From an uncultured Gammaproteobacteria bacterium (lineage in GTDB: Bacteria > Pseudomonadota > Gammaproteobacteria > SZUA-229): a stretch of DNA of 64,000 nt. The stretch is from contig CBFCZV010000011.1 of the NCBI GenBank assembly GCA_965602855.1, forward strand, positions 453-64,452. Reading direction: 5' to 3'. Positions 32,098-57,422 of the stretch are shown here, in pieces. Under the pieces are notes generated by a model that saw only the letters and a program-made list of their open reading frames with translations, ran no database searches and was not told the DNA's origin. Position numbers and translations under genes: made by a program. Position 1 is the first letter of the stretch; each line of letters opens with the position of its first letter.

Positions 32098-34494
32098 CTA
32101 TCCATCAACATCCCTCACCATCTCATCATGATAGTACTTGTACTTCGGCCGCGCCTCGATGCCATGGCATTTAACACAGAACGTATCTTTGGCGCCCCGG
32201 CGGCGTAAAAAACTATTAAGTACATTGCCTTCCTGATTCTCAAACTCTGTCCGTTCAATTACTTCTTCTTTCTTGTTCGAACCATGTTCAGGCTGCCAAC
32301 GATGAGGATTATGACAGGTCACACATGCAATACTGCCAAACTCTTCTATTTCATTTTTCGCATTCACCAGCGGCATGACTTTAGCATCAGATCGCAGTAC
32401 AAGATCTTCAAAAGGATGGCTAAAGAGTTCAACTGTCCTCTTTTCAGCTACGCCTTTATCCTGGTGACAGTTCATGCAGATACGGTCTCGCTCAAGCGGT
32501 TTTTCCTTACCTTTTTCCTTATATTTTCTGCGCTCACCTGCATATAAAAAATCAGTTTGTTCATCACCTTTATGCAGGCTGTGGCAGGATCCGCAAACAC
32601 CAGCCTGTTCAGGCTTCTGATCAAAATGATTTTCATGATTTTTGGCGGTGACACGTAGATCATGATCGGTATTAGCTACCTGCTCATATTCTTCATGACA
32701 GAAACTGCATAGTTTGCCATCACGGTTATCAAACTTAAGCAGGGCAGTGCCTTCTTTACCATTGTGTAGATCATGACAGGTCAGGCAGGTAATTTTTTTA
32801 ATTTCTTCTTCACCAACCTTGACGGATTTTTCCAGCTCAATATTGACTGGATGTATACCTTTTTTGCGTGCATCTTTTTCATCTTTGGCGTGCTGGCGTT
32901 CGTGGCAGGCTGTGCACAGTTGTGCATCATCAATTTCTAGTGGTGTCAGTGCTTCATTGGCTGCACCGTGAATCTGGTGGCAGCTCTGGCAAATCATCTG
33001 TTTATCACCACCCAGACTTAGGCCTTGTTCTAACAGTTTCTTTGGCATGCCTTTATGCAAATGTTCATCTACGGCGTAACCTTCTGTCTCACCTGCGGGC
33101 GGCTGTTTGAGATAAACCCCCACTGGATGATTAATACCTTTTAAGGGGAATTTTTTGTTTAGCGTACTGGCCAGTTTTGATTCATGACACTGCTGGCACA
33201 GGTCACCATCCTTGTTCAATACTCGCAGCCATGGATTGGCGTGCTCGCTGTATAAAGTATCGGCTTCATCGATGTCTGCCGAATGTGGGGTATGGCAACT
33301 GCCGCAACTGAGCTGTTTTTCTTTATTGTGGTTATCGCTCAATAAAGGAAATGCTTCGGGTATTTCATCCTCTCGTTTTTTGTCTTTCTGTGTTTTATCT
33401 TTTTCACGCTGATGATGAATGTCGGGGTGCTGCTCACCATGGCCAATAGAACGACGTGAATCTAGAACCGCACCGTGGTGACAGCTATAACACATGCGCT
33501 CGCTGGCCACAGGTGGCACATCTTCATGGGAAATCTTTCCTGCTTTATATTCATCCGACCATTCCAGATGGCAGCTAATGCAGTTTTTTTGTGATGTCTC
33601 TAATGTTGCTTGCTGCGGTATTGTTGCCTGTATTTCTGAAAGCTGGAATACCTCAACCCGGTTTTCCAGTGCATCGACAACATAAAGCTTGTCCTGCTCG
33701 ATGCTTAGTGCAACTGGTGCTGAAAACTTGATGGGATTCTTTTTTTCATCCATTAAAAACCCATCAAACTCACCATCATAAAAAACTGAAATCGTACCGC
33801 GATAAGCATCACTCACCAGCATGTGCCGTTCTCTTAAGGCCAGTCCATTGGGGCGATACAGTTCGCCATCTGCCAGACCGAAGCGACCTGCCTGACCAAA
33901 TCGTCGACCTTGCTGATTAAATCCCTGTACCCTCGCATTGATGACATCGACTACCTGCAGATAGCCATCACGGTCATGCTTTATCTGAAATGGAAATAAA
34001 AATTCAGAAGCCAGCTCACCACGCTTGCCCCAGCACAGCAGTTCTTTGCCCGTACTGGCATCGATACGACAGACACGGTGGTTGCGTCGATCACTCCAGC
34101 TAATAATACCCTCGCTAATTGTCAGTGCCACCGGCTCTGCTGGCTTCTCACCAGACAGGGGCAAATGCTTGATCAGTCGCCCAGCCAAATCAAACATGCT
34201 GATGCGGTGATTGCCCGTATCAGCCAGATAAACTTTATCCTCACTGATAGCTATACCCATGGGTAAGTTCAATCCCGCAGACTGGCCAAAACTGAAAGAC
34301 CATGTTGCATTTTCATCAAACACGACGACCCGATTATTAACACCATCTAAAACATAGGCATGGCCGTCTTTACTAATGGCCACGTCACTGGGCTGATCCA
34401 GGCCGCCTTCCAGCGTTGTAATATGATCTGCCTGCAGTGCTGCGTTTGCATTAACCGCAAACAAGGCGCATATCAGGAAAAAAACTGTTCTCAC
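32098..34494 (-). CDS. NHL-repeat beta-propeller fused to a dodecaheme c-type cytochrome (periplasmic or secreted)
   Basis: 798 aa with signal peptide (AVNANA). Six NHL-like repeats (e.g. YVLDGVNNRVVVFD, YLADTGNHRISMFD, YVVDALENRVEVFQ), then 12 CxxCH. GTG start overlaps the upstream stop by 4 nt. Confidence 0.85.
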   Translation of the reverse strand: MRTVFFLICALFAVNANAALQADHITTLEGGLDQPSDVAISKDGHAYVLDGVNNRVVVFDENATWSFSFGQSAGLNLPMGIAISEDKVYLADTGNHRISMFDLAGRLIKHLPLSGEKPAEPVALTISEGIISWSDRRNHRVCRIDASTGKELLCWGKRGELASEFLFPFQIKHDRDGYLQVVDVINARVQGFNQQGRRFGQAGRFGLADGELYRPNGLALRERHMLVSDAYRGTISVFYDGEFDGFLMDEKKNPIKFSAPVALSIEQDKLYVVDALENRVEVFQLSEIQATIPQQATLETSQKNCISCHLEWSDEYKAGKISHEDVPPVASERMCYSCHHGAVLDSRRSIGHGEQHPDIHHQREKDKTQKDKKREDEIPEAFPLLSDNHNKEKQLSCGSCHTPHSADIDEADTLYSEHANPWLRVLNKDGDLCQQCHESKLASTLNKKFPLKGINHPVGVYLKQPPAGETEGYAVDEHLHKGMPKKLLEQGLSLGGDKQMICQSCHQIHGAANEALTPLEIDDAQLCTACHERQHAKDEKDARKKGIHPVNIELEKSVKVGEEEIKKITCLTCHDLHNGKEGTALLKFDNRDGKLCSFCHEEYEQVANTDHDLRVTAKNHENHFDQKPEQAGVCGSCHSLHKGDEQTDFLYAGERRKYKEKGKEKPLERDRICMNCHQDKGVAEKRTVELFSHPFEDLVLRSDAKVMPLVNAKNEIEEFGSIACVTCHNPHRWQPEHGSNKKEEVIERTEFENQEGNVLNSFLRRRGAKDTFCVKCHGIEARPKYKYYHDEMVRDVDG

Positions 34495-35294
34495 TTGAGC
34501 AAATCCTTGATGCGAATTTGTTGATCATCTTTTTTGAAGCGTGTGAAGAAACGTGCAATCGTGTTTCTCTGAATTTTTTTCGCCTGCTCGGGAGATGCGC
34601 CCAGTGCTGCCAGATCCAGCATGGGGTTATCATCACCATGGCAACGCTGACATTTCGGGCCTTTTTCTTCTAGCGGTGCGTGCAGGCGTGCTTTAAGTTT
34701 GGCCTTGTCATTTTCATTGGCATCCTGCCAGTCCTGTTTTATTCTTTTAGAAAAATCATCATCGCTAAATATTAAAGCCAGCTCTTCAATATAAAACGGA
34801 GTGATTTTTGCACCTATCTGTGGCACCAGCATCAACTGTTGTTCTGGCTTATCTTTTTTGTTTTCATCCTGCTTCGGAACACGGGCAGCAATTTTGTTGC
34901 CTGCATTAGCACCATCAAAAGCCAGCCACGCATATTCCATGTCAATATCATCAGGCCGCATATGACAGGTTTCACAGGCAATATAACGACTGTGCCTGTT
35001 CATAAAGGTGCGACTACGTTCGTTCTTTCTGTGTGGCAGGCTCTGATGGCAGTTCGTGCAAATCGCCTGCTTTGTAGTTTTCTGTTGCTCAGCACGGTGA
35101 TGAAACACCGGTACGGAAATATTTTCCTGCAACTTGATTTCCTTATGATCTTTTATTTTCTTAAGGGCCTCATCAACTTGCTTTTCACTGGGTGCGGCCT
35201 GGGTTACCTGCTGCTGGTAGAACGGTACGGCCAGCAGTTGCTGGGGCAACAATAATGAACATATAAATAAAAATACTAACCAGTGCTTATTCAT
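34491..35294 (-). CDS. triheme c-type cytochrome
   Basis: Start set at MNKHWLVFLF (signal peptide); ATGAATAA overlaps the upstream stop by 8 nt. Motifs CTNCH, CETCH, CQRCH. Confidence 0.8.
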   Translation of the reverse strand: MNKHWLVFLFICSLLLPQQLLAVPFYQQQVTQAAPSEKQVDEALKKIKDHKEIKLQENISVPVFHHRAEQQKTTKQAICTNCHQSLPHRKNERSRTFMNRHSRYIACETCHMRPDDIDMEYAWLAFDGANAGNKIAARVPKQDENKKDKPEQQLMLVPQIGAKITPFYIEELALIFSDDDFSKRIKQDWQDANENDKAKLKARLHAPLEEKGPKCQRCHGDDNPMLDLAALGASPEQAKKIQRNTIARFFTRFKKDDQQIRIKDLLK

Positions 35295-37554
35295 TGCCTT
35301 TCTCCTGATTAGCTGATTTTTTTCCGGAGGCATTTTTACTGTTCCTTTTCTTTACTTTTCCTTTGGCTTTGCGTTCCAGCATTTTTTCCTGAAAAGCATC
35401 ACCACCCAGTATGGAGAAGGTCACACCCTTTTTACGCTTGCCCAATACACTGCGCCACAAAGCACCAACAGCAAAAACCAGTATCACTGGAAGAAAAATA
35501 AACAATGCTTTTATCCAGTTTGAATCTGTTCTTTCAACGACGGGTAACGTGCTGTCATCACTAACGGCAATCATATCCAGATCGTGTAGATCTGTTTCGA
35601 CAAAGCCTTTATTTAGCGGGTGTTTAGCAAAGCCATGACATTCACTCTGTGCACAAGTTTCTGCCAGCTTTTCCGGATGCGTTGCAGCCTGTTTCTTTTC
35701 ATCGCGCAAAATGCCATGCCGATAACCTGTTGGTGCGTGGCAATCAATACATGATGCACCCTGCATAACATTCGCTTCTAGCAGACGTCCGTGCAGGGTC
35801 ATTGCATAACTATCGCTGGCGACGACAAATCGTGGCCCGGCTTTTTCTTTTTCCTGGGTTTCTTCATCTTCTATTTCAACTTCAGCCATGCGCTCGTGAT
35901 CTGCATGGCACTGGTTGCAGCTTCTGTTATGATCATTTTTATCCCAACGTGAACCTATAAAACGACGCAACAAATGCCCGCTAAATTGCCCTAACCAAAC
36001 TTCTCCTTGATGACATTTTCCACATTCAGTTTCGACATGATCAAAATCGGCTTTAAATTTCGGCAGCATTTTCTCACTGATATAGGCTTCGTTGCTGTGA
36101 CATTGACGGCAGGATGGGTTTTGTTTCTCGCTGCTTTCTTCCAGTCGGTTGCCGCCGGTGAATCCCTTGCTCCAGCCGTCGCCATGCGTGGAATCGGCAA
36201 ACTCTTCGACCACTTTTTTATGAGTATAGGGTTTGCCTTTGGATGGCTCTTCTACATGACAGGTCTCAGCGCAATCGACTTCACCATTCTCAACCTTGTG
36301 TGGAAAATCCTGTATTTTTCGATGACAGTCCTTGCACGGCACGCTGCCATGGAGTGAACTGTTGTAATGTTTTTTTTTGATTGATGCGCTACGTAGCACG
36401 CCTAGCTTATCAATATAATCCAGTCCCTCTAAAGCATGACAGGAAAAACAGCCATCGGGGTCGGGGTGACGCTCGGCGGCAAAAACATCCTGACTAAAAC
36501 CAACAAAGAGCAATGTCATAACAAAGATCAAGGCCACACTCATATGCCGTGGAGAACGCCAATGCTTAAATCCCTTTCCTTTATTTAGTCGCAGGTACGA
36601 CCAGCGACTGTCTTTTTTCTCCTTTTTTGATGGCTCGAAATGAACGGCCGTCCAGTTTGGCTGGGGATGGAAATCCACGCCTTTTTTCTTACGCTTAGGA
36701 TCTTCATCCAGTGGCGCACTACGCCAGTCGATTGCACCCCAGTCACAGACATCAACGCATTCATGACAGGACATGCAGGATAGTTGATCGACCACGGCAA
36801 TGCCGTCTTTCATCTGAATGGCACCGGTCATGCATTGGCGGGCACAGATATTACAGCCGGTACAGCGGCTACGTTCAACGCGTACCCGTCGGGTAAATCT
36901 GAACATTGCACCGAGTCGATTAACCAGTCCATCGACGGCACCGATGGGGCAAAGGAACGTACAGTAAGCACGGCCTTTGCTGGAAAAGAATCCCAGCAAA
37001 AACAGCAGAGCGATATTGACCAGACCAATGCCAGACAAAATATAAGCAAACCCCTTGAGGCCACCACTGATTGCTTCAAACAAACGCGGCACGGTAATAA
37101 AATTACATAGCGTGCAGGCGCTGATACCCAGCAGCGGCATCAATACCAGATAAACAGAAAAGTAACCGTAACGAATTGGCACCTGAGGCAGGGCGCGGTA
37201 TTCAATCTTCCAGCGGTCGTCTATTGTGCGGCTGACCATTTCGGGAAAACCGCCGACCGGACAAACGTAGGAACACCACATACGGCCGTAAAAAAACGTG
37301 GTCATCATAATGGTGGTGAACACATATACCCCGATGGAGGCTACCTGAATATTATTAGCAACATCCTGTGGGTCCATACCGGGGAAGATTAGATAAAAGC
37401 GGCGCATACAAAGCTTGCCGCACAGATCCGGATTATCAACCAGGCTCGGTAAAAACAGAAAGGGCGCAAAAAATAATGTGCATGACAATATAATTATTGC
37501 GTAGCGAAACTTCTGCGGGTTGGGTATCGCCTTGATGTTATCGATAATTCTCAT
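35287..37554 (-). CDS. NapH/CcoG-type membrane polyferredoxin fused to a membrane-anchored multiheme cytochrome c domain
   Basis: 755 aa. N-terminal 4 TM helices with CSYVCPVGG and CTFLCPIGA, then two 4Fe-4S motifs (CTGCNICARQC, CMSCHECVDVC). A TM follows, then 6 CxxCH plus CAETCH and CAQSECH, a final TM, and a Lys-rich tail. Confidence 0.85.
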   Translation of the reverse strand: MRIIDNIKAIPNPQKFRYAIIILSCTLFFAPFLFLPSLVDNPDLCGKLCMRRFYLIFPGMDPQDVANNIQVASIGVYVFTTIMMTTFFYGRMWCSYVCPVGGFPEMVSRTIDDRWKIEYRALPQVPIRYGYFSVYLVLMPLLGISACTLCNFITVPRLFEAISGGLKGFAYILSGIGLVNIALLFLLGFFSSKGRAYCTFLCPIGAVDGLVNRLGAMFRFTRRVRVERSRCTGCNICARQCMTGAIQMKDGIAVVDQLSCMSCHECVDVCDWGAIDWRSAPLDEDPKRKKKGVDFHPQPNWTAVHFEPSKKEKKDSRWSYLRLNKGKGFKHWRSPRHMSVALIFVMTLLFVGFSQDVFAAERHPDPDGCFSCHALEGLDYIDKLGVLRSASIKKKHYNSSLHGSVPCKDCHRKIQDFPHKVENGEVDCAETCHVEEPSKGKPYTHKKVVEEFADSTHGDGWSKGFTGGNRLEESSEKQNPSCRQCHSNEAYISEKMLPKFKADFDHVETECGKCHQGEVWLGQFSGHLLRRFIGSRWDKNDHNRSCNQCHADHERMAEVEIEDEETQEKEKAGPRFVVASDSYAMTLHGRLLEANVMQGASCIDCHAPTGYRHGILRDEKKQAATHPEKLAETCAQSECHGFAKHPLNKGFVETDLHDLDMIAVSDDSTLPVVERTDSNWIKALFIFLPVILVFAVGALWRSVLGKRKKGVTFSILGGDAFQEKMLERKAKGKVKKRNSKNASGKKSANQEKGNE

Positions 37555-37557
37555 TCT

Positions 37558-38460
37558 TTATCTCTCAAATTCATGGCAGGCTAAACACAGCGTGCCGTCT
37601 TTGGCTGACAGGCGTAGCAATACCTCATCCTGCAGGCGTTGATATTTCAGTTCGTGCGTACCGCCGTCCTGCTTTGCCAGTTTTTTTAATCGTTTTTCTT
37701 TATCAGCCCTGAATACTTTGTTCCAGACATGATCTTTGTAGCTCACACCTTTTTCAACTTCTACATCTGCAATCTGTCTGCCAGCGGGTTTATCTTTTGC
37801 AATCACGCCTATTTCATGGGGCGAGTGACAGGTGGCACACATGACTTTGTTTTTACTGTCCAGTGGCAAAATGATCTTATGTTCCTGTTCCGATTTTTCT
37901 ATACGCTCTCGCATTTCCTTATCCGGCTCTGCCCGATGATTCAGCGCATTAAAGTGCGGCGCATCTAAATGACAGCCCCAGCATAATTTTTCAGGTGGCA
38001 GGCGAAATTCCAGCTCATCTCGTTTAATTTCTTTTTCTGGGTCGGGTGCTTCCTTATGGCAATACTCACAGTCTTTCTCATCGTACTCACCGTTATCATC
38101 GAGCAGGTCATGAATATTAGGACGCTGATAATCTTCCTTCTCATGACAGAGATAACAGAAATCACTTAGCTTTTTGTAAGGGCCGCCACGGTGAAAGTCA
38201 TCGGCTTTTTTATCTACCTTGTCAATTTCTGTTTTTTCAATATCCTTGATGCCATGACAGGTTTTACAGACGATCTTGCCTTCATCACTCAACGGTAAAT
38301 CATCAGACACTTTCATTGCTTCTGGCGGTTTGATGTCAACCAGATGGTGCATAGCTGGCAGCTCAATTTTTTTATCTCCCGCCGTCGTGTCTTCTGCTAT
38401 TACCTGTAAGGGCAACAGACCAATAAGAAATAGAGATAAATATGAACGAGTGAACATCAC
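37558..38460 (-). CDS. hexaheme c-type cytochrome (periplasmic)
   Basis: 300 aa with signal peptide (LPLQVIA). Six CxxCH (CKTCH, CYLCH, CEYCH, CWGCH, CATCH, CLACH). Confidence 0.85.
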   Translation of the reverse strand: MMFTRSYLSLFLIGLLPLQVIAEDTTAGDKKIELPAMHHLVDIKPPEAMKVSDDLPLSDEGKIVCKTCHGIKDIEKTEIDKVDKKADDFHRGGPYKKLSDFCYLCHEKEDYQRPNIHDLLDDNGEYDEKDCEYCHKEAPDPEKEIKRDELEFRLPPEKLCWGCHLDAPHFNALNHRAEPDKEMRERIEKSEQEHKIILPLDSKNKVMCATCHSPHEIGVIAKDKPAGRQIADVEVEKGVSYKDHVWNKVFRADKEKRLKKLAKQDGGTHELKYQRLQDEVLLRLSAKDGTLCLACHEFER

Positions 38461-39449
38461 ATGCCTGCCTGTGCAGCTTCACCGTGTGTATGGCAATCTC
38501 GGCAGTCACCACCAACATCGTGCACACCGCTCAGGCCATTACCAGTATCCTGTGCACCTTCATCTACTATGGTCTCCATCTGATGACACAACACGCACAG
38601 CTGAGAATAATCACCATCAACTACTGTTACCGAATAGGGCTCATCACGTAATACACTATCAAGCTGTGAAGCCCCTTTGTTTGAGCTATCAATAATTAAT
38701 TTTTCATTATTAGTGGCGTGCATGCTGTGACAGTCCGTACAATCGACAACACTCTGATAGCTATACGCCTCGCGCAGGCCACTATAAGTTGCTACACCAC
38801 TGCCATCGACTAACCCGTGTTTATCAATAAAATTAAAATCATCTTCTGATGCAACTAGAGGGTCGTCGTAGCTGTTGCCAGTAATTTCAAAGCCGGTTTG
38901 CTGGTGATCACGATTGTGGCAACGCAGGCAGAATTCAGCTTCTGAACTGTAGTCCACAATGTTCTGCAGGGCGTTGGGGTACTTTGTCAGGTCAGTATTG
39001 ATTTCAAACTGTCCGTCCATATCTGATGCATCGTGGCAATAGACACATTGTTCATCACTAACGTCTGCCACCAAAGTCGCACTAAAACCATGGCCATGCT
39101 GGCCTTGCCAAATTTGATTATCAGGCATATCACTGTTGTTGTGACAAATGACACACTGGCGTGAGCCACTTTCATTCGTGCCGTTGTTACCATGGCAGCC
39201 AGTACAACTGGCAAAGCCTTTTTCAACAACAATGCCACGAATTAGATCTGCAATGTCATGAATTCCTGCTATCGAATGACATGCACCACAATCTGGCAAT
39301 CCCCAGGCTGCGCCACCTTCGCCATGACTGGCATCCAGAATTAAATTAGCTTCTGTAATATGTTTTGTTTCACCCTCACTATCACCGCCACAGGCTGTAA
39401 GCAGTAGTGACAGCATCAATCCTAAAATTAAAATCATTTTATTCATCAT
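38457..39449 (-). CDS. octaheme c-type cytochrome lipoprotein
   Basis: 330 aa. Lipobox LLLTAC followed by GGD; eight CxxCH. Overlaps the upstream stop by 4 nt (ATGA). Confidence 0.85.
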   Translation of the reverse strand: MMNKMILILGLMLSLLLTACGGDSEGETKHITEANLILDASHGEGGAAWGLPDCGACHSIAGIHDIADLIRGIVVEKGFASCTGCHGNNGTNESGSRQCVICHNNSDMPDNQIWQGQHGHGFSATLVADVSDEQCVYCHDASDMDGQFEINTDLTKYPNALQNIVDYSSEAEFCLRCHNRDHQQTGFEITGNSYDDPLVASEDDFNFIDKHGLVDGSGVATYSGLREAYSYQSVVDCTDCHSMHATNNEKLIIDSSNKGASQLDSVLRDEPYSVTVVDGDYSQLCVLCHQMETIVDEGAQDTGNGLSGVHDVGGDCRDCHTHGEAAQAGM

Positions 39450-40078
39450 CGACTCTTCCTGTGACAGTCACTACAGTAACCAATGTTGTGGCAACGACTG
39501 CATGAAGCAGCATTCATACGCGCCTCGATACCATGGCTGGCACGATAACCCAGACCATGAACTCGCCGATGTGTTTTATCGCGACGGAAATGACAATCGC
39601 TACAAAAAGACTGATCGATATGACAGCTACTACATTGCTCATCATCTGGTTTGGCCGAATCCAGACGTGCATCCTCACCGTGATGATTTGCGTAATCCAG
39701 ATTGTGATCTTTCGGCCATATTTTTTTCGGATCGTCATGACACAGTTCACAACGCGAGGGGGCACTCTGCCTGCTTACATGGCATTCATGACAAATCGCT
39801 TCTAGCGGCTCATTGGAAATTACATTGAGCTTTTTAAGCTGTTTTAGATCAGTGACGCTGTTTTTATTAAAGGGATGACACAGTAAACAACTATCTCCTT
39901 CCTTTTCCATCGCATCAAAATGTGCTTTATGCGGATAAAAAATATCGGCGCGCTGATCACGCATTTGCCACCAGCTTTTTTCTTTCTCTGGTTTGTTCGT
40001 CACTTCTTTTTCCAATGTTGCCTGTTCAGCCATCACTGGCAACGCAAACAGGGTCAGAAACAACAATAAAATTCTCAT
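39446..40078 (-). CDS. heptaheme c-type cytochrome (periplasmic, c3/c7-like heme density)
   Basis: 210 aa with signal peptide (ALPVMA). Seven CxxCH in about 150 mature residues. Start overlaps the barrel gene stop by 1 nt (TAATG). Confidence 0.85.
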   Translation of the reverse strand: MRILLLFLTLFALPVMAEQATLEKEVTNKPEKEKSWWQMRDQRADIFYPHKAHFDAMEKEGDSCLLCHPFNKNSVTDLKQLKKLNVISNEPLEAICHECHVSRQSAPSRCELCHDDPKKIWPKDHNLDYANHHGEDARLDSAKPDDEQCSSCHIDQSFCSDCHFRRDKTHRRVHGLGYRASHGIEARMNAASCSRCHNIGYCSDCHRKSR

Positions 40079-41349
40079 TACATTGCTCCCTGCCTGTCAT
40101 CGCCAAAGCTATAACTAAGACTAAGAAGAAAGCGATATTCATCTTCGAGACGACTATTCCAGATATGGCTAGCGGTAACATCAAACTCTAGGCCAGATAG
40201 CATGTCTTTAACGCCTAGCATATGCTCCATACGTAGCTCTATGCCAATACTGCGATTATCGCCCTCCAGTTGTTTTTCCTGTTGCTGCAATACGCTACTG
40301 ACGCCACCCCTCACAGAAGAGCTGAGAGTTTTCTCTACATCAATGAACAAACTACTTACACGCTCAGTCTGCAATTCTAGTTGTTCAGCTTTAGCCGCAA
40401 GTAACAAGCCTTGATTGCTACGCCGCTCAATTTCAAACATGGACGCATAACCGTTACCACCGACTTCACGATTCACCTGCCGCGTTGCCACTGACCATGT
40501 TTGTTGATAATCATATTTAAATTGATAGGCTGCTTTGAATTGCGTTTGTTGACCAGTAGCATAAAGTGAATAAAATCGGTCTCTAAAACTCAGCGCATCA
40601 TCAGCAGGCTCGTAGGTTTCATAGTCGAGTCGAAGCGTGCTATCTTCTTTCAAATCCCAGCGTGTATTCATCAGCACTGATTCCCACTGCGATCTTTCTA
40701 CTACGTAACTTGCAGACATCGATAATGCTGCAGGCAGCAGATTTTCATTATCACTACTAGCAGCCAATCCGAAATGATAGCGTTGTTCATGACCATCCTG
40801 ATCTAAACGCTGCCAGCCGAAGCGAGTATCAACTTGATAATTATGAATAAGACGTGGCATAGTTAGCAGATCAACCCCATAGATCGCCTCACCATCAATT
40901 GAATTAAATGCTTCAACGCGACCGGGGACGCCTGTATAAAAGTTTAGAATTAGAGCGTCAGCTTTATGACGATATTGAAGACCATCAAGACTGTAATAAC
41001 CGAGGGTATCGGCTCGAAAAAAACGACCCACACTAATTCGATCTAGTGATTTATTAAAATCCTGTTGCAGATAAAATTGATACAGCTCAGCTTCACTATC
41101 ATCTGTCTGTTGTGACAATGCTAAGCTCAAGCCACTTATCAAGCCTTTATTATGATCGTTATAAACTAGATCAAGCCGTTCTTGCAAACTACTCTCAGAA
41201 TAAAACTGGCTGTTATTCATTTCAATAGCAGTTTCCAGCTCCCCCGACAATCCTGCCTGTGCATCTGATGTTGCTAATGCCATTATGCCTAACAGGCTTA
41301 GTACATAATTAAAACCGCGCACTGCTATCGTCGTAAAAACCATTGCCAT
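40078..41349 (-). CDS. putative outer-membrane beta-barrel (porin-like partner of the adjacent cytochromes)
   Basis: 423 aa with signal peptide (ALATSDAQA). No Cys and no heme motif. Tyr/Gly/Ser/Asp-rich with alternating hydrophobic pattern; LLSLSYSF lies near the C-terminus. Confidence 0.6.
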   Translation of the reverse strand: MAMVFTTIAVRGFNYVLSLLGIMALATSDAQAGLSGELETAIEMNNSQFYSESSLQERLDLVYNDHNKGLISGLSLALSQQTDDSEAELYQFYLQQDFNKSLDRISVGRFFRADTLGYYSLDGLQYRHKADALILNFYTGVPGRVEAFNSIDGEAIYGVDLLTMPRLIHNYQVDTRFGWQRLDQDGHEQRYHFGLAASSDNENLLPAALSMSASYVVERSQWESVLMNTRWDLKEDSTLRLDYETYEPADDALSFRDRFYSLYATGQQTQFKAAYQFKYDYQQTWSVATRQVNREVGGNGYASMFEIERRSNQGLLLAAKAEQLELQTERVSSLFIDVEKTLSSSVRGGVSSVLQQQEKQLEGDNRSIGIELRMEHMLGVKDMLSGLEFDVTASHIWNSRLEDEYRFLLSLSYSFGDDRQGAM

Positions 41350-41539
41350 GTTTCTTTTTATGCACGGCCCAGGTAACGATAGCTGCTAGCGCAACCACAC
41401 AGCCACCACAGGTAGAACAACGACCTTCTTTTGGAACAGTGCAGTTGGAAGAAGTGATAATATGACTAACGGCAAAACCAGCACCCGCTAACCAGGGCAC
41501 CAATTTTTCACTTCGCTTTAGCAAGCTTTTTTGTTTCAT
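41309..41539 (-). CDS. small Cys-rich two-TM membrane protein
   Basis: 76 aa. Two hydrophobic segments flank NCTVPKEGRCSTCGGC. Its 3' end overlaps the barrel gene start by 41 nt, so either gene's limits may differ. Confidence 0.4.
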   Translation of the reverse strand: MKQKSLLKRSEKLVPWLAGAGFAVSHIITSSNCTVPKEGRCSTCGGCVVALAAIVTWAVHKKKHGNGFYDDSSARF

Positions 41540-41563
41540 TATTATTTGCCTAAAAGAATCCGC

Positions 41564-41598
41564 GGGAAGTTATTTCCAAAAAGGAGGCATAACTTCCC
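41564..41598 (-). promoter_or_regulatory. intercistronic stem-loop between the large surface cytochrome gene and the downstream genes
   Basis: GGGAAGTTAT-15 nt-ATAACTTCCC is a perfect 10-bp stem. Only a weak U-stretch follows, so it may be an attenuator or an mRNA-stability element. Confidence 0.45.
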
Positions 41599-41625
41599 AC
41601 GGTAATGTCACTCGAAGGAGGCGAG

Positions 41626-44508
41626 TTAAACTCTGATACGACGTCTGCCACAACCCACCAGGGTCATAACAAACATCCCAATTAACAGCACATAGTCAGC
41701 CGATCCACCACCTGATGACGTAGAAGTAACAGCACTAGAATCACTATCTGCAGATGCAATGCTACTATCAACAATTGCATAATCACTGAAGTGATCAGTC
41801 CAGAATACAATCATACCTTCACTCTCTTCACCCTCGACTTCAGAGTGAGGCTGTATTAGGGCAATGTCATCTACACTAATTTCTGACCAGCTAACACCGC
41901 TATCAGTAGAGAAGATAACTTTGACCTCATCAAGACGGGTATTGCTACCCTTATAAGGCATTTTCACCAGCATTCGATTGTTCGAAAAGTTAGTTACTTC
42001 GTTACTGTTACTGTCTGTTACTTGCAATGAGTAGACGTCTGAAGTTAGTCCACCTAGATCTGCATCATCAACACTGGCAAGCACATCAAGGTTAGACAAA
42101 CTGACCTGCACTCTGTAATCAGGGAACGTTAGTTCAGTTTGTCCATTATCTTCCACCATCACTAACACTCCACGAATAACACTGCTACCATAACGTGCCT
42201 GATACGCAAACACGTCATCACCAGGGAACAAAGTAGCAGCTAATGCCGTATTTGCTACTCCTGCCTTCACAATTGCATCATGGGCAGACGCTCGTTTAAA
42301 TACGCCTGAATCTGCATCAGTTATTTCAGCATTCAAAATTGACATAGATGGATTGAGTCTTGATGCATAAAGAATATCTGAAACATTCTCAGTAACCACA
42401 CCGAACTCATCGGCCTTCATGTATGGATAATCAAAAATCACCAAACCTTCATCGACAAGACGAGGGTCTACTAACTCAGTAATTTCTTTAGTATTACCTT
42501 CACCAAACAGGCCTGTGGGTGACAACAATGTACTAAATGACCCATCCTGTTTAACATTATGGCACTGCTCACACTGTACCGAAGCAACTGCTGGGCGAGT
42601 ATTATGTGACATCAAATACTGGTTTGATTCTGTCCAAACCATAATTGCATCTGGATTTTCTACACCTTTAGCAATCAATACTTTGTCAAAAGCATTTTTA
42701 ACCGCAACAAATGTTTCATAATCCTCGGGTTCACCAAAACGCCAGCTGCCGTGAGAGAAACTGACCGTCACTGTGCCCAACTCTTCACCAGATACCGGGT
42801 CAACAATAACACCATAATTTTCTCCCGCATCATCTGTAAGCATTTCAAAAACACTATCACGCTCGGTCTTATTTATAGTGCGACCAGTATTTTTATCTTT
42901 CCAGTAGTAACGCAGCCTTGGGTTGTAAGGAACAATTGTAAGATCACCATTTTCAGCTGCACGATACCTGTACATCGGTAGTATCGGAACACCGCGACTT
43001 TCCTTATCTGTAATATGACAGGCCTGACAACTAACAACGTCCAGATGCGTCTGCGTAATACGTTCCAGCGTCTCCTGTGGATATCCAGTCATATCGCCAC
43101 TTGCTTTCCATTTCGCAAGATGAGCCTCCTGCATACTGTCATGACCTGAAGGAATAGCAGGATTCGGTGCATCATCATGGCAATATTCACAGGATTTTGC
43201 ATTCGGTGAATAATCCAGATCATTACGTACATCCATATCTGAATTACCTTTAAGGAAATTATGATCAGCATCCAGATCAACATTGGCATACGCTGGATTA
43301 AAATAATTCCGTGTATGACAGGCATTACAGTTTTCTATTGCACGCTCTTCGCCATTAGGCTCAATCCACGTCTTACCTTTATGCACATCATCCTGATAGT
43401 CCTCAACTACAACACCGTCCTCATCAATAACTGCTTCTGCACTTTCACCAAAACCATAAAAACCACGGCGTGAGTTGCTGGTAAGGTGGCACATCATGCA
43501 GTTATCATTAGCTGGGAATCGAATCATCGGAATAGCTACTTTCTTGTCCTCATCAAAAGCAGCGGTATTCCAGTTGAGTAGTGGTTGCTCATTCTCATCC
43601 TCAAGCAACATATAAGCCGGCTCAGACGCATGCATATCAATTTCTACGCCTTCTGGTATTTCTGTGGTGCGATCAAAAGTAACCACTGAGGTATCCACCT
43701 GCACACCATCTTCATGCTTAAGATTCAAAAACTCTAAAATGGAAGTATTCACACTGCGGAATTGCCCTTCATCAGCCAAATAGGTACGGCGCAATGCTTT
43801 AAAATGATCAAACGCAGAGTCTCCGCCTTCAACCTCTAACTGTGGATCAAAAACTTGTAAAGCGTCAAATTGCACATGACATATCAAGCAGTCATTCTCT
43901 ACGACACCACTTTTTTTCCAGTCCCATGCAGAAATTCCACTTGGATCCTCTGTACCCGCATTGGTATTACGACTGTAGTAATCACCATCGAACTTGGGAA
44001 CAGAAGCAATATCAACTTCATCATAGCGGTTTCCATTTCTGTCTTTCTCCATCCAGCCACCACCAGCATGACAACTTACACATCGCATAATATGATCGGC
44101 TGACCCCAGATCACCAAAATCATCAGCACTCGCATTACTCTTCTTAGCAAGCTGATCTGGATTGCTGCTTCCCATGCAGTTATAACCACCATAATAACCA
44201 GGGCCAACTAGAGTAGTCAGCCCGCGCAATTCACCAAAGTCATCGCGAGTCTCATCGCGACCTTGTTCAATATGAAAAGCATGAGTAATGGCCTCATAGT
44301 CATGACAGCCACCAGTACCACAGGTAACTTTTGAACTATAAGGATTAGCACTATCGAGAACATGGTTACCATCTTCATCTAGTAACGGAATGGCCGGGTG
44401 TAGAATCGGTTTATCCATATCATTAATTGCCGCTTCTACCTGCCCAACTGACACAAATAAAAACAAAAACCCTGACAAAACCACCATTTTCTTATTTAAA
44501 AAATTCAT
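41626..44508 (-). CDS. large (960 aa) multiheme c-type cytochrome with a C-terminal GlyGly-CTERM-type sorting signal
   Basis: Start set at MNFLNKKMVVLSGFLFLFVSVGQVEA (SD GAGAG, 9 nt spacing). Seven CxxCH plus CGTGGCH (CX4CH). The last ~300 aa are heme-free. C-terminus is SSGGGSADYVLLIGMFVMTLVGCGRRRIRV. Confidence 0.85.
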   Translation of the reverse strand: MNFLNKKMVVLSGFLFLFVSVGQVEAAINDMDKPILHPAIPLLDEDGNHVLDSANPYSSKVTCGTGGCHDYEAITHAFHIEQGRDETRDDFGELRGLTTLVGPGYYGGYNCMGSSNPDQLAKKSNASADDFGDLGSADHIMRCVSCHAGGGWMEKDRNGNRYDEVDIASVPKFDGDYYSRNTNAGTEDPSGISAWDWKKSGVVENDCLICHVQFDALQVFDPQLEVEGGDSAFDHFKALRRTYLADEGQFRSVNTSILEFLNLKHEDGVQVDTSVVTFDRTTEIPEGVEIDMHASEPAYMLLEDENEQPLLNWNTAAFDEDKKVAIPMIRFPANDNCMMCHLTSNSRRGFYGFGESAEAVIDEDGVVVEDYQDDVHKGKTWIEPNGEERAIENCNACHTRNYFNPAYANVDLDADHNFLKGNSDMDVRNDLDYSPNAKSCEYCHDDAPNPAIPSGHDSMQEAHLAKWKASGDMTGYPQETLERITQTHLDVVSCQACHITDKESRGVPILPMYRYRAAENGDLTIVPYNPRLRYYWKDKNTGRTINKTERDSVFEMLTDDAGENYGVIVDPVSGEELGTVTVSFSHGSWRFGEPEDYETFVAVKNAFDKVLIAKGVENPDAIMVWTESNQYLMSHNTRPAVASVQCEQCHNVKQDGSFSTLLSPTGLFGEGNTKEITELVDPRLVDEGLVIFDYPYMKADEFGVVTENVSDILYASRLNPSMSILNAEITDADSGVFKRASAHDAIVKAGVANTALAATLFPGDDVFAYQARYGSSVIRGVLVMVEDNGQTELTFPDYRVQVSLSNLDVLASVDDADLGGLTSDVYSLQVTDSNSNEVTNFSNNRMLVKMPYKGSNTRLDEVKVIFSTDSGVSWSEISVDDIALIQPHSEVEGEESEGMIVFWTDHFSDYAIVDSSIASADSDSSAVTSTSSGGGSADYVLLIGMFVMTLVGCGRRRIRV

Positions 44509-44528: not shown

Positions 44529-44795
<267 letters not shown>

Positions 44796-44966: not shown

Positions 44967-45944
44967 TCAAAGATTAACAAAATTAACCTCCAACCTAAAC
45001 AACACCTCCCAAGCCCCCAAGCGCTCATCCGTAACCAGTGGCTTATTCCAGTTAACTGCTGGCGCTATCTCATAGAACAACCATTTTCTATGAAAATTCT
45101 GTCGAAAACGTATACCCACACGTGTGTTATTTGTATACCTATCCGGCTTTGTCACACCACTTACACTACTCTCATAAGAAAGCGCGCTTTTATCTGTTAG
45201 ATGCTGGTACAGTACCAAACCGCTTGTCAATTCTTTACCTTCAAAACTTTCTGATTTAGAGGCATAATTAGTTTGTCTTAGTAAAAAATCATCACTCAGT
45301 TTTTTTTCAAAATCTATTCTAGATGTGGTTCCATCCGCATTATCTCGCCTGAACAATTCCTGTGTAAATCGAGTGATAAATGTTTCAGTAATTGGCCACT
45401 TATAACGATAGCGAAAGGCAATGCTCGGAGAAAGTTTTACCCTGACACCAAAATTTGCTCTTTCTGATTTTGTTACCTCGTACAACAAACCAAGGTTGCC
45501 ACCTGACTCCGTATCAGAACCGGGGACAATATCCCGTAAAGTTTCATCTTCATCATCTTCAAATATAAGATTGATACTCTTCTTTGTTTTGGGTAGTTTA
45601 AAACTGGCATGCAAATTACTGGCATATGACCATCTACCTCCCTCAGTTAATATAAAATCGTTTTGCCAGCGAACACGCGTACCTGCTCGCACCTCTTCGT
45701 CTACTCGAGCACTAGAAAAAAACGAATCAAACCATACTGAAGGCTCACAGAACTGTATGCTCAAATAAGTATGCGCCTCATCAAACCAGCTATCACTTTC
45801 TCCCTTCAATTGCTCACAGACAGACGACTCATCCTCCTGTTTAATTTCTTCAGACACTTCTGCATAGGCATGCTTTACCTGTACCGAACTCAGCAATACA
45901 AGCAGAAATATATAACTTATTTTTTTATAAGCTAATGGGAGCAT
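44967..45944 (-). CDS. hypothetical outer-membrane protein (possible small beta-barrel)
   Basis: 325 aa with signal peptide (VKHAYA). Alternating-pattern segments; C-terminal FRLEVNFVNL. Confidence 0.5.
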   Translation of the reverse strand: MLPLAYKKISYIFLLVLLSSVQVKHAYAEVSEEIKQEDESSVCEQLKGESDSWFDEAHTYLSIQFCEPSVWFDSFFSSARVDEEVRAGTRVRWQNDFILTEGGRWSYASNLHASFKLPKTKKSINLIFEDDEDETLRDIVPGSDTESGGNLGLLYEVTKSERANFGVRVKLSPSIAFRYRYKWPITETFITRFTQELFRRDNADGTTSRIDFEKKLSDDFLLRQTNYASKSESFEGKELTSGLVLYQHLTDKSALSYESSVSGVTKPDRYTNNTRVGIRFRQNFHRKWLFYEIAPAVNWNKPLVTDERLGAWEVLFRLEVNFVNL

Positions 45945-47609: not shown

Positions 47610-47637
47610 TTTCTTAACCTTTCTGCCCTTTATAAAC

Positions 47638-47674
47638 AAAAAAACCGGCACCCAAATCTAATCAGGTACCGGTC
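47638..47674 (-). terminator. rho-independent terminator after the LPP20-like gene
   Basis: Minus strand reads ACCGGTACC-12 nt-GGTGCCGGT followed by TTTTTTT. It lies upstream of the revised start at 47609. Confidence 0.6.
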
Positions 47675-49549: not shown

Positions 49550-49591
49550 GTGCTCGTCACTCCGTACTTGAAGATTCTGATTTTATAATTC

Positions 49592-51896: not shown

Positions 51897-51899
51897 CTT

Positions 51900-54262: not shown

Positions 54263-54267
54263 TATTT

Positions 54268-55208: not shown

Positions 55209-55247
55209 AAGACATAAAACCTATTATTATATTTTTATCTTGCCAGC

Positions 55248-57290: not shown

Positions 57291-57422
57291 TACTTCAAAA
57301 CTCCAGACATACCAGCCCACCAATGGGCAAAAAGTGGCGAGATTCTACACTAAGCAGCATATTTCATAAAGCTAGACAGTTAAATGTTGTCATTATCTTT
57401 ATTACACGGATAATGCACCATC

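What the first reader, a model, noticed from the sequence alone, without database searches (positions are those of the whole stretch)
35287..37554. NapH/CcoG-like polyferredoxin fused in one polypeptide to a membrane-anchored multiheme cytochrome domain
The N-terminal ~290 aa has four TM helices carrying the CxxxCP motifs (CSYVCPVGG, CTFLCPIGA), followed by two cytoplasmic Cx2Cx2Cx3C clusters. That is the NapH/MauN/CcoG architecture.

A fifth TM then exports a ~400-aa domain with 6 CxxCH plus CAETCH and CAQSECH. A sixth TM returns the chain to a Lys-rich cytoplasmic tail.

In known EET systems the inner-membrane entry point is a NapC/NirT-type protein (CymA), ImcH, or the b-heme/c-heme fusion CbcL. 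An Fe-S/quinol-type module covalently joined to a multiheme domain would be a different solution. It could move electrons between the quinone pool or cytoplasmic ferredoxin and the periplasm.
Basis: partly seen in the sequence, partly recalled or inferred. Interest (0 to 1): 0.78.

Follow-up and report, generated by a model that had tools for sequence, protein, structure and literature searches.

The report
Iron-sulfur membrane protein fused to octaheme cytochrome
This gene really does join a NapH-type iron-sulfur membrane protein to an eight-heme cytochrome, and it is the conserved but unstudied inner-membrane part of a cell-envelope-spanning electron conduit found in sulfur-oxidising bacteria, animal symbionts and methane oxidisers.

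Summary
The 755-aa ORF at 35287-37554 (-) has 4 TM helices with two CxxxCP motifs and two Cx2Cx2Cx3C motifs. A fifth TM is followed by eight c-heme motifs (6 CxxCH, CAETCH, CAQSECH), a sixth TM and a Lys-rich tail.

It is not a frameshift artefact. About 108 of the 120 best homologs (43-88% identity) are full-length fusions, and every Cys/His ligand checked is conserved. The gene always sits at the same place in a conserved 8-gene cluster with about 52 hemes. The Methylococcus capsulatus counterpart is, by position in the operon, the copper-repressed MCA0424-0434 operon.

Natural variants show how the parts belong together:
- The two halves are separate adjacent genes in about 32 loci.
- The downstream triheme protein is also fused in 6 proteins.
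- In 5 loci the cytochrome half continues into a cytoplasmic CysJ-type NADPH diflavin reductase.
- Distant relatives of the octaheme module pair with an FdnI-type cytochrome b, as CbcL does.

New details: a family-specific quartet of invariant Cys, predicted at the periplasmic face and absent from E. coli NapH, and a conserved signal-peptidase motif after TM5, so the mature protein may be two chains.

Most likely it is the inner-membrane entry module of an extracellular electron-transfer conduit. Whether quinol or a cytoplasmic reductant is the donor is unresolved. It is a new variant of known kinds and has not been characterised.

The parts
35287..37554 (-). Target gene: 755-aa NapH-type polyferredoxin fused to an octaheme cytochrome c
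   Evidence: ORF; motifs; family matches; about 108 of the 120 best homologs are full-length fusions.
36565..37554 (-). Residues 1-330. NapH-type module: 4 TM helices, two CxxxCP motifs (C94/C98, C198/C202) predicted at the cytoplasmic face, two cytoplasmic Cx2Cx2Cx3C motifs (231-241, 260-270), a family-specific Cys quartet C45/C49/C147/C150 predicted at the periplasmic face, and a K/R-rich linker.
   Evidence: TIGR02163 E 3.6e-20; alignment with E. coli NapH; invariant Cys; quartet pattern in 110 of 111 N-terminal halves and absent from generic NapH-like proteins.
36487..36540 (-). Residues 339-356. TM5, in effect an internal signal peptide. It is followed by a conserved signal-peptidase I type motif (VFA|AER, residues 357-362).
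   Evidence: -1 is A/G/S in 114 of 115 homologs, -3 is V/A/L/S/T/I/G in 114 of 115, basic n-region, uncharged run of median 17 aa.
35512..36486 (-). Residues 357-681. Periplasmic octaheme c module with motif order CxxCH, CxxCH, CxxxCH, CxxCH x4, CxxxxCH, plus 9 invariant non-motif histidines that are candidate distal ligands.
   Evidence: AlphaFold2 model pLDDT 80.7, pTM 0.80; no PDB relative by fold or sequence; the same motif order in distant relatives.
35287..35511 (-). Residues 682-755 plus stop. TM6 and a cytoplasmic tail with the conserved GGxxF motif (G717 and F721 invariant) followed by a Lys-rich stretch. This is the position where CysJ or the triheme protein is attached in other genomes.
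   Evidence: CysJ fusions; triple fusions.
34491..35294 (-). Downstream triheme cytochrome, listed as 280 aa from 35333. The likely true start is the ATG at 35294 (MNKHW...), which overlaps the target's stop by 8 nt. It is fused to the target's homolog in 6 proteins.
   Evidence: P0067 residues 728-958 align with it at E 3e-34; L084 has no separate gene.
32098..34494 (-). NHL-repeat plus 12-heme cytochrome, the last gene of the conserved cluster
   Evidence: Pfam NHL and Paired_CXXCH_1; synteny.
37558..38460 (-). 6-heme cytochrome with a signal peptide, directly upstream. Its stop lies 3 nt before the target's ATG.
   Evidence: synteny.
38457..39449 (-). 8-heme cytochrome with a lipobox-like N-terminus (LLLTAC)
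   Evidence: synteny.
39446..40078 (-). 7-heme cytochrome with a signal peptide
   Evidence: synteny.
40078..41349 (-). 423-aa protein with a signal peptide, no Cys and no Pfam family. Presumed outer-membrane beta-barrel.
   Evidence: It matches the M. capsulatus locus at the corresponding position (E 1.6e-23); the beta-barrel gene of that operon is called MCA0427 in PMC4831470.
41626..44553 (-). 975-aa 8-heme cytochrome, presumed extracellular. The C-terminus is a Gly run, a hydrophobic stretch, then RRRIRV.
   Evidence: synteny. The C-terminal sorting signal was not recognised by any NCBIfam model.
44529..44783 (-). YfhL-family 2x[4Fe-4S] ferredoxin, co-oriented directly upstream. It is adjacent to the cluster only in the window's close relatives, so it is a possible clade-specific cytoplasmic donor, not a core part.
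   Evidence: NF033683, 124 bits against a cut-off of 86; adjacent only in L001-L003, L035 and L037.

Best explanation
The gene encodes the inner-membrane electron-transfer module of a conserved eight-gene conduit of multiheme cytochromes that spans the cell envelope.

Proposed path (inferred): the cytoplasmic pair of [4Fe-4S] clusters takes up electrons. They pass through the cysteine sites of the 4-TM bundle, first the two CxxxCP motifs predicted at the cytoplasmic face, then the family-specific C45/C49/C147/C150 quartet predicted at the periplasmic face. They then enter the bis-His octaheme domain, which TM5 and TM6 hold against the membrane. From there they move to the triheme protein encoded downstream, the 6-, 7-, 8- and 12-heme periplasmic cytochromes, and the presumed beta-barrel and 8-heme surface cytochrome. 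The final acceptor is extracellular, such as Fe(III), Mn(IV) or Cu(II) minerals.

I favour a cytoplasmic reductant rather than quinol as the immediate donor: NADPH through a CysJ-type reductase where one is fused, and a ferredoxin or separate reductase in this organism. On that view the module is a transmembrane Fe-S-to-heme wire that bypasses the quinone pool.

Shown here: the architecture, the conservation of ligands, the synteny and the natural fusions and splits. Inferred: cofactor occupancy, direction of flow, donor and acceptor.

My confidence that this is the inner-membrane module of the conduit is about 0.85. My confidence in the cytoplasmic-donor path is about 0.45.
For: Architecture and topology.

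Ligand conservation: all predicted ligands are invariant or nearly so.

Synteny: the gene order is fixed in every locus with enough flank, and the target is translationally coupled to both neighbours.

Physical association of the parts:
- The two halves are separate adjacent genes in about 32 loci.
- The triheme protein is fused on in 6 proteins.

Cytoplasmic donor:
- In 5 loci, including M. capsulatus Texas, a complete CysJ-type flavodoxin/FAD/NADPH module follows TM6. P0122 matches TIGR01931 at E 1e-209, above the cut-off, and the M. capsulatus ORF matches three Pfam domains above their cut-offs.
- The NapH-like subunit there is 60% identical to the target's N-terminal half.
- The ferredoxin domain's best solved relative is RnfB.
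- A YfhL ferredoxin is co-oriented directly upstream in this clade.

Bridge to the hemes: the Cys quartet is found in 110 of 111 N-terminal halves and is absent from E. coli NapH and from generic NapH-like proteins.

Extracellular role:
- The presumed beta-barrel and surface cytochrome belong to the cluster.
- Proteins of the M. capsulatus operon were detected at the cell surface, and the operon is induced by copper limitation (PMC4831470).
- Relatives of the octaheme module pair with FdnI-type cytochrome b and sit in clusters with NHL-repeat and multiheme cytochrome genes.
Against: - No experiment bears on this protein.
- NapH, the nearest characterised relative, is regarded as a quinol dehydrogenase and keeps the same cytoplasmic clusters, so those clusters do not prove a cytoplasmic donor.
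- Only 5 of about 69 loci carry CysJ, and the window has no CysJ homolog.
- The ferredoxin adjacency is limited to one clade.
- In sister architectures the octaheme module pairs with a quinone-reactive cytochrome b, which favours coupling to the quinone pool.
- The full-length AlphaFold2 model failed (pLDDT 51.8), so the geometry of the cysteine sites is untested. The quartet could be two disulfides rather than a cluster.
- Direction of flow cannot be read from sequence.
Confidence: 0.5

Rival explanations
1. Quinol:cytochrome c oxidoreductase. The NapH-type module oxidises ubiquinol or menaquinol as NapGH does, and the fused octaheme domain replaces NapG (and NapC) as the periplasmic acceptor. 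Electrons from the quinone pool then leave through the cytochrome chain, and the cytoplasmic clusters have an accessory role.
For: NapH/MauN is the best family match, and the target aligns with E. coli NapH over TM2 to the C-terminus with all 12 shared Cys. NapGH is taken to be a quinol dehydrogenase (established knowledge; also stated in PMC9012536). Distant relatives of the octaheme module are fused to, or translationally coupled with, a quinone-reactive FdnI/HydC-type cytochrome b, so NapH-like and cytochrome b appear interchangeable. A quinone-linked route would conserve energy.
Against: It does not explain why a complete NADPH diflavin reductase is attached at the cytoplasmic side in 5 loci. 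The score is far below the NapH cut-offs (72.5 against 213; 65.6 against 234). No napG or napA lies nearby. No quinol site is defined in any NapH, so none could be tested.
Confidence: 0.33
2. Electron uptake. The conduit runs inward in these chemolithotrophs. Electrons from extracellular Fe(II), metal sulfides or a partner cell reach the octaheme domain, and the NapH-type module delivers them to the quinone pool or to cytoplasmic Fe-S acceptors.
For: Many hosts are sulfur-oxidising autotrophs and symbionts. Porin-cytochrome systems and CbcL/MtoC-type proteins are reported in both metal reducers and metal oxidisers (PMC6295460).
Against: A fused NADPH-oxidising CysJ module fits export better, because reducing NADP+ from Fe(II)-level donors is uphill. 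The M. capsulatus operon responds to copper limitation in a methanotroph, which is rich in reductant. Nothing in the cluster suggests an energy input for uphill transfer.
Confidence: 0.12
3. The fusion exists only in the precursor. Signal peptidase I cuts after TM5 (VFA|AER), giving a 5-TM Fe-S subunit and a separate octaheme subunit anchored by TM6. The mature complex would then be the same as in genomes where the two genes are split. This concerns 'one polypeptide' only and is compatible with any of the mechanisms above.
For: The -3/-1 motif is conserved in 114 of 115 homologs, with a basic n-region and an uncharged run of median 17 residues. The same segment is the N-terminal signal peptide of the stand-alone cytochrome in split genomes. 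Split and fused forms interchange among close relatives at 66-69% identity. Precedent from my own knowledge, not checked here: the Bradyrhizobium FbcH cytochrome b-c1 polyprotein.
Against: Internal signal sequences after large cytoplasmic domains often stay uncleaved. The motif may simply be inherited from a split ancestor. There are no proteomic data.
Confidence: 0.45
4. Assembly or sequencing artefact: two adjacent genes merged by a frameshift error in the A-rich linker.
For: The linker contains three A6 runs, and genuinely split versions exist.
Against: Three homologs of exactly 755 aa at 82-88% identity come from other assemblies. About 108 of 120 homologs and about 37 species-representative loci are fused.
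Confidence: 0.01

Closest known systems
NapH (with NapG), the membrane quinol-dehydrogenase subunit of periplasmic nitrate reductase; NapH/MauN family TIGR02163
   Same: Four TM helices, two CxxxCP motifs and two C-terminal Cx2Cx2Cx3C motifs in the same order. 23% identity to E. coli NapH, E 3e-9. Like NapH, it hands electrons to a periplasmic multi-centre redox partner.
   Different: Far below the family cut-offs, and no nap genes nearby. It has an extra invariant Cys quartet predicted at the periplasmic face. The periplasmic partner is a covalently encoded octaheme cytochrome c instead of the separate Fe-S protein NapG.
NosR and PceC, NapH-like membrane proteins with an extracytosolic flavinylated FMN-binding domain (survey 10.1101/2021.01.07.425746)
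   Same: The same design principle: a NapH-like Fe-S membrane core fused to an extracytosolic redox domain that feeds periplasmic enzymes.
   Different: The extracytosolic domain here is C-terminal, heme-based (8 hemes) and bracketed by two extra TM helices, not an N-terminal FMN domain. NosR scores 40.6 bits against a cut-off of 1000. No ApbE or FMN-binding domain was seen in the cluster.
CbcL / MtrH / MtoC, inner-membrane multiheme-c plus diheme-b fusions of Geobacter and relatives
   Same: An inner-membrane redox module fused to a periplasmic bis-His multiheme domain at the start of an extracellular electron-transfer chain. Proteins with the CbcL-type layout (P0125, P0126, P0134, P0139, P0140) carry an octaheme module related to the target's (29-36% identity over roughly 250-290 residues) with the same order of motif types.
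   Different: The membrane module here is Fe-S (NapH-type), not an FdnI/HydC cytochrome b, and it lies N-terminal to the heme domain rather than C-terminal. CbcL itself is described with nine CXXCH motifs in residues 30-279 (PMC9129911). Direct homology to GSU0274 was not tested.
Methylococcus capsulatus (Bath) operon MCA0424-MCA0434 (copper-responding cluster 1; PMC4831470)
   Same: The same gene cluster by order and homology, shown in strain Texas (L043): all eight window proteins match in order. The paper describes 11 genes, 8 multiheme cytochromes, 58 CxxCH motifs, the beta-barrel MCA0427, induction under copper limitation and products at the cell surface.
   Different: There the NapH-like and cytochrome halves are separate genes, and the cytochrome gene carries a C-terminal CysJ-type reductase. 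MCA0430, by its number the NapH-like gene, appears in no paper of the searchable library.
Transmembrane redox complexes of sulfate reducers (Hmc, Tmc, DsrMKJOP); comparison from established knowledge
   Same: They link periplasmic multiheme cytochromes c to cytoplasmic Fe-S proteins across the membrane.
   Different: They are multi-subunit, use b-heme membrane subunits and CCG-type cytoplasmic Fe-S proteins, and are not homologous. No sequence relationship was seen beyond weak matches of neighbouring cluster cytochromes to HmcA and QrcA.

Membership tests
NapH/MauN family (TIGR02163) and NapH equivalog (NF007013) | Score at or above the curated family cut-off | tested here: not met
   72.5 bits against 213.05, and 65.6 bits against 234.
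NapH/MauN family | Four TM helices with two CxxxCP motifs, followed by two cytoplasmic 4-Cys ferredoxin motifs | tested here: met
   All 12 Cys align with E. coli NapH.
NapH/MauN family | Encoded with napG and napA (or mau genes) | tested here: not met
   No such genes in the window cluster or in about 69 related loci. The neighbours are multiheme cytochromes.
NapH/MauN family | Quinol dehydrogenase activity | not testable with these tools
   Needs biochemistry.
CcoG/RdxA/FixG (TIGR02745) | Score at or above the cut-off; C-terminal extracytoplasmic domain after a fifth TM; cupric reductase role in cbb3 oxidase assembly | tested here: not met
   31.3 bits against 316.7. The C-terminal domain here is an octaheme cytochrome.
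NosR (NF046105) | N-terminal periplasmic FMN-binding domain plus a NapH-like core; score at or above the cut-off | tested here: not met
   40.6 bits against 1000, matching only the core, residues 78-268. No FMN-binding domain found by Pfam.
CbcL/MtrH/MtoC-type inner-membrane cytochromes | C-terminal six-TM HydC/FdnI-type diheme cytochrome b domain | tested here: not met
   No Ni_hydr_CYTB or FdnI match in the target. It is present in the distant relatives P0125, P0126, P0134, P0139 and P0140.
CbcL/MtrH/MtoC-type inner-membrane cytochromes | Periplasmic bis-His multiheme c domain homologous to that of family members | tested here: inconclusive
   The module is related to proteins with the CbcL-type layout (E 3.6e-32 to 1e-22). 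CbcL (GSU0274) itself could not be obtained for comparison and has nine CXXCH motifs.
NapC/NirT (CymA) family | N-terminal single TM plus a tetraheme NapC/NirT domain (PF03264) | tested here: not met
   No PF03264 match in the target. Only weak matches in the neighbouring 280-aa and 330-aa cytochromes.
c-type multiheme cytochrome (general) | Conserved heme-attachment motifs in an exported domain, with a maturation system available | tested here: met
   8 motifs conserved; exported according to the topology; ccmA-I operon at 48914-56572. Heme occupancy itself was not tested.

The most novel reading that the evidence does not exclude
The NapH-type module is a transmembrane wire made only of Fe-S centres. 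These are two cytoplasmic [4Fe-4S] clusters, a centre held by the two CxxxCP motifs, and a further centre held by the periplasmic-face Cys quartet. It would carry electrons from cytoplasmic NAD(P)H or ferredoxin straight to periplasmic hemes and on to the cell surface, bypassing the quinone pool.

Together with the CysJ-fused form, this would be a bacterial counterpart of the eukaryotic NOX/FRE ferric and cupric reductases, built from unrelated parts. In sulfur oxidisers, symbionts and aerobic methanotrophs it would serve extracellular metal reduction, either for copper or iron acquisition or for disposal of electrons under hypoxia. It would also explain what the long-puzzling cytoplasmic clusters of NapH-family proteins are for.
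Probability: 0.35. Interest if true: 0.88.

Novelty: new variant of a known kind. Interest (0 to 1): 0.72.

Why it matters
**A further entry point.** The review read here lists three protein families as inner-membrane entry points for extracellular electron transfer: CymA, CbcL/MtoC and ImcH (PMC6295460). This would be a further one, based on Fe-S centres.

**Ecologically important hosts.** It is not from classical metal reducers. It occurs in free-living and symbiotic sulfur oxidisers (Thiodiazotropha, tubeworm symbionts, Beggiatoaceae, Sedimenticola) and in aerobic methanotrophs.

**Testable in cultured strains.** Anoxic or hypoxic activity and electrode or mineral reduction by aerobic methanotrophs are under active study. 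This gives a concrete gene set to test. Cultured carriers exist: M. capsulatus and Oleiphilaceae J1-3.

**Sharp predictions.** The natural fusions (CysJ, triheme protein, cytochrome b swap) predict the subunit contacts and the electron donor. They also offer a way into the unresolved function of the cytoplasmic clusters in the NapH/NosR/CcoG superfamily.

**If the quinol model is right.** The finding is then more ordinary: a NapGH-like quinol dehydrogenase with a heme partner in place of an Fe-S partner.

Tried and rejected
- **Full-length AlphaFold2 with 27 sequences.** pLDDT 51.8, pTM 0.30. Unusable, so no fold search was run on it and the Cys geometry could not be examined. The tool returns no coordinates in any case.
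- **Foldseek of the good octaheme model against the PDB.** Nothing better than E 2.6. Sequence and profile searches of the PDB hit only the ferredoxin domain.
- **Rfam on the whole window.** No matches.
- **Literature.** Two of the first hits for 'NapH' were false word-start matches to naphthalene or strain NaphS2. The Methylobacter bioanode paper describes a different, MtrAB-type cluster. PCC3 and PCC4 of iron oxidisers have a different 5-TM inner-membrane protein. The Uet cluster of Tenderia shares NHL-repeat proteins, but no NapH-type protein is mentioned in the passages read. Tanaka 2018 does not mention this operon.
- **Unannotated 541-aa and 325-aa ORFs upstream of the cluster.** They have no counterpart in any related locus, so they are not counted as parts.
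- **The YfhL ferredoxin as a core component.** Rejected, because it is adjacent only in close relatives.
- **GlyGly-CTERM-type sorting signal on the 975-aa cytochrome.** No NCBIfam model matched. The resemblance rests on my reading of the sequence only.
- **My first automatic ORF picks for L076, L077 and L080.** They were in the wrong frame and were ignored.
- **Cluster look-up of the distant relatives.** It returned almost no names or organisms.

Full report
**1. Observation**

The ORF 35287..37554 (-) exists, starts with ATG and encodes 755 aa.
- CSYVCP at residue 94 and CTFLCP at 198.
- Cx2Cx2Cx3C at 231 and 260.
- Six CxxCH after residue 357 (369, 407, 482, 511, 546, 602), plus CAETCH at 428 and CAQSECH at 634.

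There are six hydrophobic segments (about 17-38, 69-89, 129-150, 166-190, 339-356, 682-701) and a tail with 16 K+R in 54 residues. K+R density is 0.15-0.30 per residue in the segments assigned to the cytoplasm and 0.07-0.12 in those assigned to the periplasm.

Pfam finds Fer4_5 twice, a dicluster ferredoxin domain, and an MtrC/MtrF-type heme domain on residues 407-554. NCBIfam's best match is NapH/MauN, E 3.6e-20, covering almost the whole profile. The score is 72.5 bits against a cut-off of 213. NosR (40.6 against 1000) and CcoG (31.3 against 316.7) score lower still.

The gene is tightly packed. Its ATG lies 3 nt after the stop of the upstream cytochrome gene. The likely true start of the downstream gene (ATG at 35294, MNKHW..., preceded by AGGAGA) overlaps the target's stop by 8 nt.

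**2. Not an artefact, and not chance**

The protein search returned 231 relatives. Of the best 120 (43-88% identity), about 108 are full-length fusions from many independent assemblies.

In 27 sequences at 48-82% identity, the following are invariant:
- all 16 Fe-S/CxxxCP cysteines;
- all eight heme motifs;
- nine further histidines (H396, H402, H419, H445, H457, H527, H588, H613, H657).

That is enough for bis-His ligation of all eight hemes. A 120-sequence alignment gives the same picture. The ten proteins my pattern first missed all keep eight heme motifs in the module, except P0079, where only seven fit the patterns scanned. In three of them the eighth motif is CxxCH rather than CxxxxCH.

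**3. Context: one conserved eight-gene cluster**

A scan of species-representative genomes gave 497 confirmed stretches, and 79 loci were kept. Hosts are:
- Chromatiales MAGs.
- Parabeggiatoa, Thiomargarita, Thioploca and Venteria.
- Escarpia and Lamellibrachia symbionts.
- Thiodiazotropha and Sedimenticola.
- The isolate Oleiphilaceae J1-3.
- A Magnetococcales MAG and a Nitrosomonas MAG.
- Many Methylococcales, including Methylococcus capsulatus Texas and a Bathymodiolus methanotrophic symbiont.

tblastn with the window's proteins shows one fixed order in every locus with enough flank: 975-aa cytochrome, 423-aa protein, 210-aa, 330-aa and 300-aa cytochromes, target, 280-aa cytochrome, NHL-cytochrome.

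In the window these carry 8+7+8+6+8+3+12 = 52 heme motifs. The 423-aa protein has a signal peptide, no Cys and no Pfam family. The 330-aa protein has a lipobox-like N-terminus. The 975-aa protein ends in a Gly run, a hydrophobic stretch and RRRIRV.

By position and content, the M. capsulatus Bath counterpart is the operon MCA0424-MCA0434. It has 11 genes, 8 multiheme cytochromes, 58 CxxCH motifs and the beta-barrel MCA0427. It is induced under copper limitation, and MCA0424 and MCA0426 were detected at the cell surface (PMC4831470). MCA0430, by its number the NapH-like gene, occurs in no paper of the searchable library.

**4. Natural fusions and splits**

(a) *Split.* In about 32 loci the two halves are adjacent genes in different frames. 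These include most Methylococcales and also close relatives of the window at 66-68% identity (L001, L035-L037). About 37 loci are fused, including the closest species representative at 69%. The break falls in the K/R-rich linker before TM5.

(b) *Triple fusion.* Six proteins (P0059, P0067, P0073, P0079, P0083, P0089) continue past the tail through another hydrophobic segment into a domain with three extra CxxCH motifs. For P0067 I checked that this domain is the homolog of the downstream 280-aa triheme protein (residues 728-958 against 21-269, E 3e-34) and that its locus has no separate 280-aa gene.

(c) *CysJ fusion.* In L043 (M. capsulatus Texas), L050, L052, L061 and L062 the cytochrome gene continues after TM6 into a full diflavin reductase. 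P0122 matches TIGR01931 at E 1e-209, above the cut-off. The M. capsulatus ORF matches Flavodoxin_1, FAD_binding_1 and NAD_binding_1, all above their cut-offs.

(d) *Partner swap.* An exhaustive search with the octaheme module alone found 367 relatives. Beyond the orthologues there are stand-alone proteins of about 330-400 aa, and proteins fused to a C-terminal FdnI/HydC-type cytochrome b, which is the CbcL-type layout. The nine distant relatives examined share 29-36% identity with the module. Eight of them keep the motif order CxxCH, CxxCH, CxxxCH, CxxCH x4, CxxxxCH, and the ninth (P0132) differs only in having CxxCH as its eighth motif. One stand-alone relative is translationally coupled to a Ni_hydr_CYTB gene and followed by NHL-repeat and large multiheme cytochrome genes.

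Together these variants show three things. The NapH-like part, the octaheme part and the triheme protein work as one unit. The segment after TM6 is cytoplasmic. The octaheme module is a general periplasmic adaptor for inner-membrane redox modules in cytochrome-rich clusters.

**5. New anatomical details**

*Cys quartet.* C45/C49 lie just after TM1 and C147/C150 at the end of TM3, both at the predicted periplasmic face. All four are invariant, and the pattern is found in 110 of 111 N-terminal halves. The quartet is absent from E. coli NapH and from generic NapH-like proteins of Clostridiales, Microvirga and Methanoregula. It is present in one distant stand-alone relative from a Nitrospirae MAG, whose neighbours look like TonB-receptor and ExbBD-type genes.

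*Internal signal peptide.* TM5 has a basic n-region and an uncharged run of median 17 residues. Position -1 is A/G/S and position -3 is V/A/L/S/T/I/G, each in 114 of 115 homologs, just before the invariant R362. The fused precursor may therefore be cut into two chains.

*Conserved tail motif.* G717 and F721 (GGxxF) after TM6 are invariant.

**6. Structure**

The full-length model was poor (pLDDT 51.8). The octaheme module modelled with 120 sequences was good (pLDDT 80.7, pTM 0.80). It has no relative in the PDB by fold (best E 2.6) or by sequence or profile. Only the ferredoxin domain has solved relatives, the best being RnfB at 1e-9.

**7. Mechanism**

The core reading, at about 0.85, is that this is the inner-membrane module of an electron conduit spanning the cell envelope. 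It rests on architecture, conservation, synteny and the fusions.

For the donor I weigh two models:
- *Cytoplasmic reductant passed across the membrane by Fe-S centres, about 0.45.* This explains the CysJ fusion on a subunit whose partner is 60% identical to the target's N-terminal half, the invariant cytoplasmic clusters, the quartet as a bridge to heme 1, and the YfhL ferredoxin (124 bits against 86) placed directly upstream in this clade.
- *Quinol oxidation as in NapGH, about 0.33.* This is supported by the NapH homology and by the interchange with quinone-reactive cytochrome b.

Inward flow is possible (about 0.12) but fits the CysJ fusion poorly. Cofactor occupancy, direction, donor and acceptor are all inferred. 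Nothing here is experimental.

**8. Comparison with what is known**

- It resembles NapH but fails the family cut-offs and lacks the nap gene context.
- It follows the NosR/PceC design of a NapH-like core plus an extracytosolic redox domain, but with hemes instead of FMN and in the opposite domain order.
- It is the functional analogue of CbcL, with an Fe-S module in place of cytochrome b.
- An ANME-2c NapH homolog next to an 8-heme cytochrome was proposed as a possible quinol:cytochrome c oxidoreductase (PMC9012536).
- I found no paper describing the fusion, the quartet, the CysJ link or the family's distribution.

**9. Verdict**

The feature is real, widespread and uncharacterised. It is a new variant of known kinds, namely the NapH-like electron-transfer modules and the inner-membrane multiheme fusions. 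Interest is 0.72. If the Fe-S wire from cytoplasmic reductant is confirmed (probability about 0.35), it would deserve about 0.88.

Noticed in passing
window 48914-56572 (-): A System I cytochrome c maturation operon lies about 4 kb upstream of the cluster on the same strand. It contains a ccmA-like ABC ATPase, ccmB, ccmC, ccmF, a CcmG-like redoxin, ccmH and ccmI/CycH, and is followed by a DsbA-like gene. This fits the roughly 52 hemes encoded next door.
   Followed up: partly
L043 17924-18322 and 15 other related loci (for example L023, L051, L066, L069): A CcmG/AhpC-TSA-type redoxin recurs within the fetched flank of the cluster in 16 loci, directly after the NHL-cytochrome gene in L043. It may be a dedicated thiol reductant for heme attachment.
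   Followed up: partly
L075 6601-12372: The only distant stand-alone NapH-like protein found with the periplasmic-face Cys quartet (Nitrospirae MAG, 35% identity) has no cytochrome genes nearby. From their sizes and N-termini, its neighbours look like a 702-aa TonB-dependent receptor and ExbB/ExbD/TonB genes. They were not scanned against family libraries. This hints at reductive metal uptake.
   Followed up: partly
window 59717-60739 (+) and 60736-63264 (+): A MauG/MbnH-like di-heme enzyme (TIGR04039, E 3e-52, below the cut-off) overlaps by 4 nt the start of an 842-aa PAS-GGDEF-EAL protein. MauG-family genes also lie in the copper-responding cluster of M. capsulatus.
   Followed up: no
window 41626-41760 (-), C-terminus of the 975-aa cytochrome: The C-terminus (SSGGGSADYVLLIGMFVMTLVGCGRRRIRV) looks like a GlyGly-CTERM or PEP-CTERM-type sorting signal, but no NCBIfam model matched it.
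   Followed up: partly
window 44967-45944 (-) and 46026-47651 (-): Two ORFs of 325 and 541 aa directly upstream of the cluster have no Pfam or NCBIfam family and no homolog in any of the related loci.
   Followed up: partly
L001 5015-5245, L002 3669-3899 and L084 5667-5903: A small called gene (76-78 aa, no Pfam hit) sits between the large cytochrome and the presumed beta-barrel gene in these loci. The window has a gap at the matching position (41350-41625) that I did not inspect.
   Followed up: no
P0064, P0066, P0071, P0075 (872-931 aa): Some fused homologs have cytoplasmic tails of 229-266 residues after the last heme motif, with no further heme motifs. P0070, seen in the alignment, has a long Lys/Ala/Glu-rich tail of this sort. 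Their function is unknown.
   Followed up: no
window 56679-57323 (-): A diheme c-type cytochrome weakly resembling the periplasmic shuttle PdsA (E 1.9e-19, far below the cut-off) and CcoP lies just upstream of the ccm operon.
   Followed up: no
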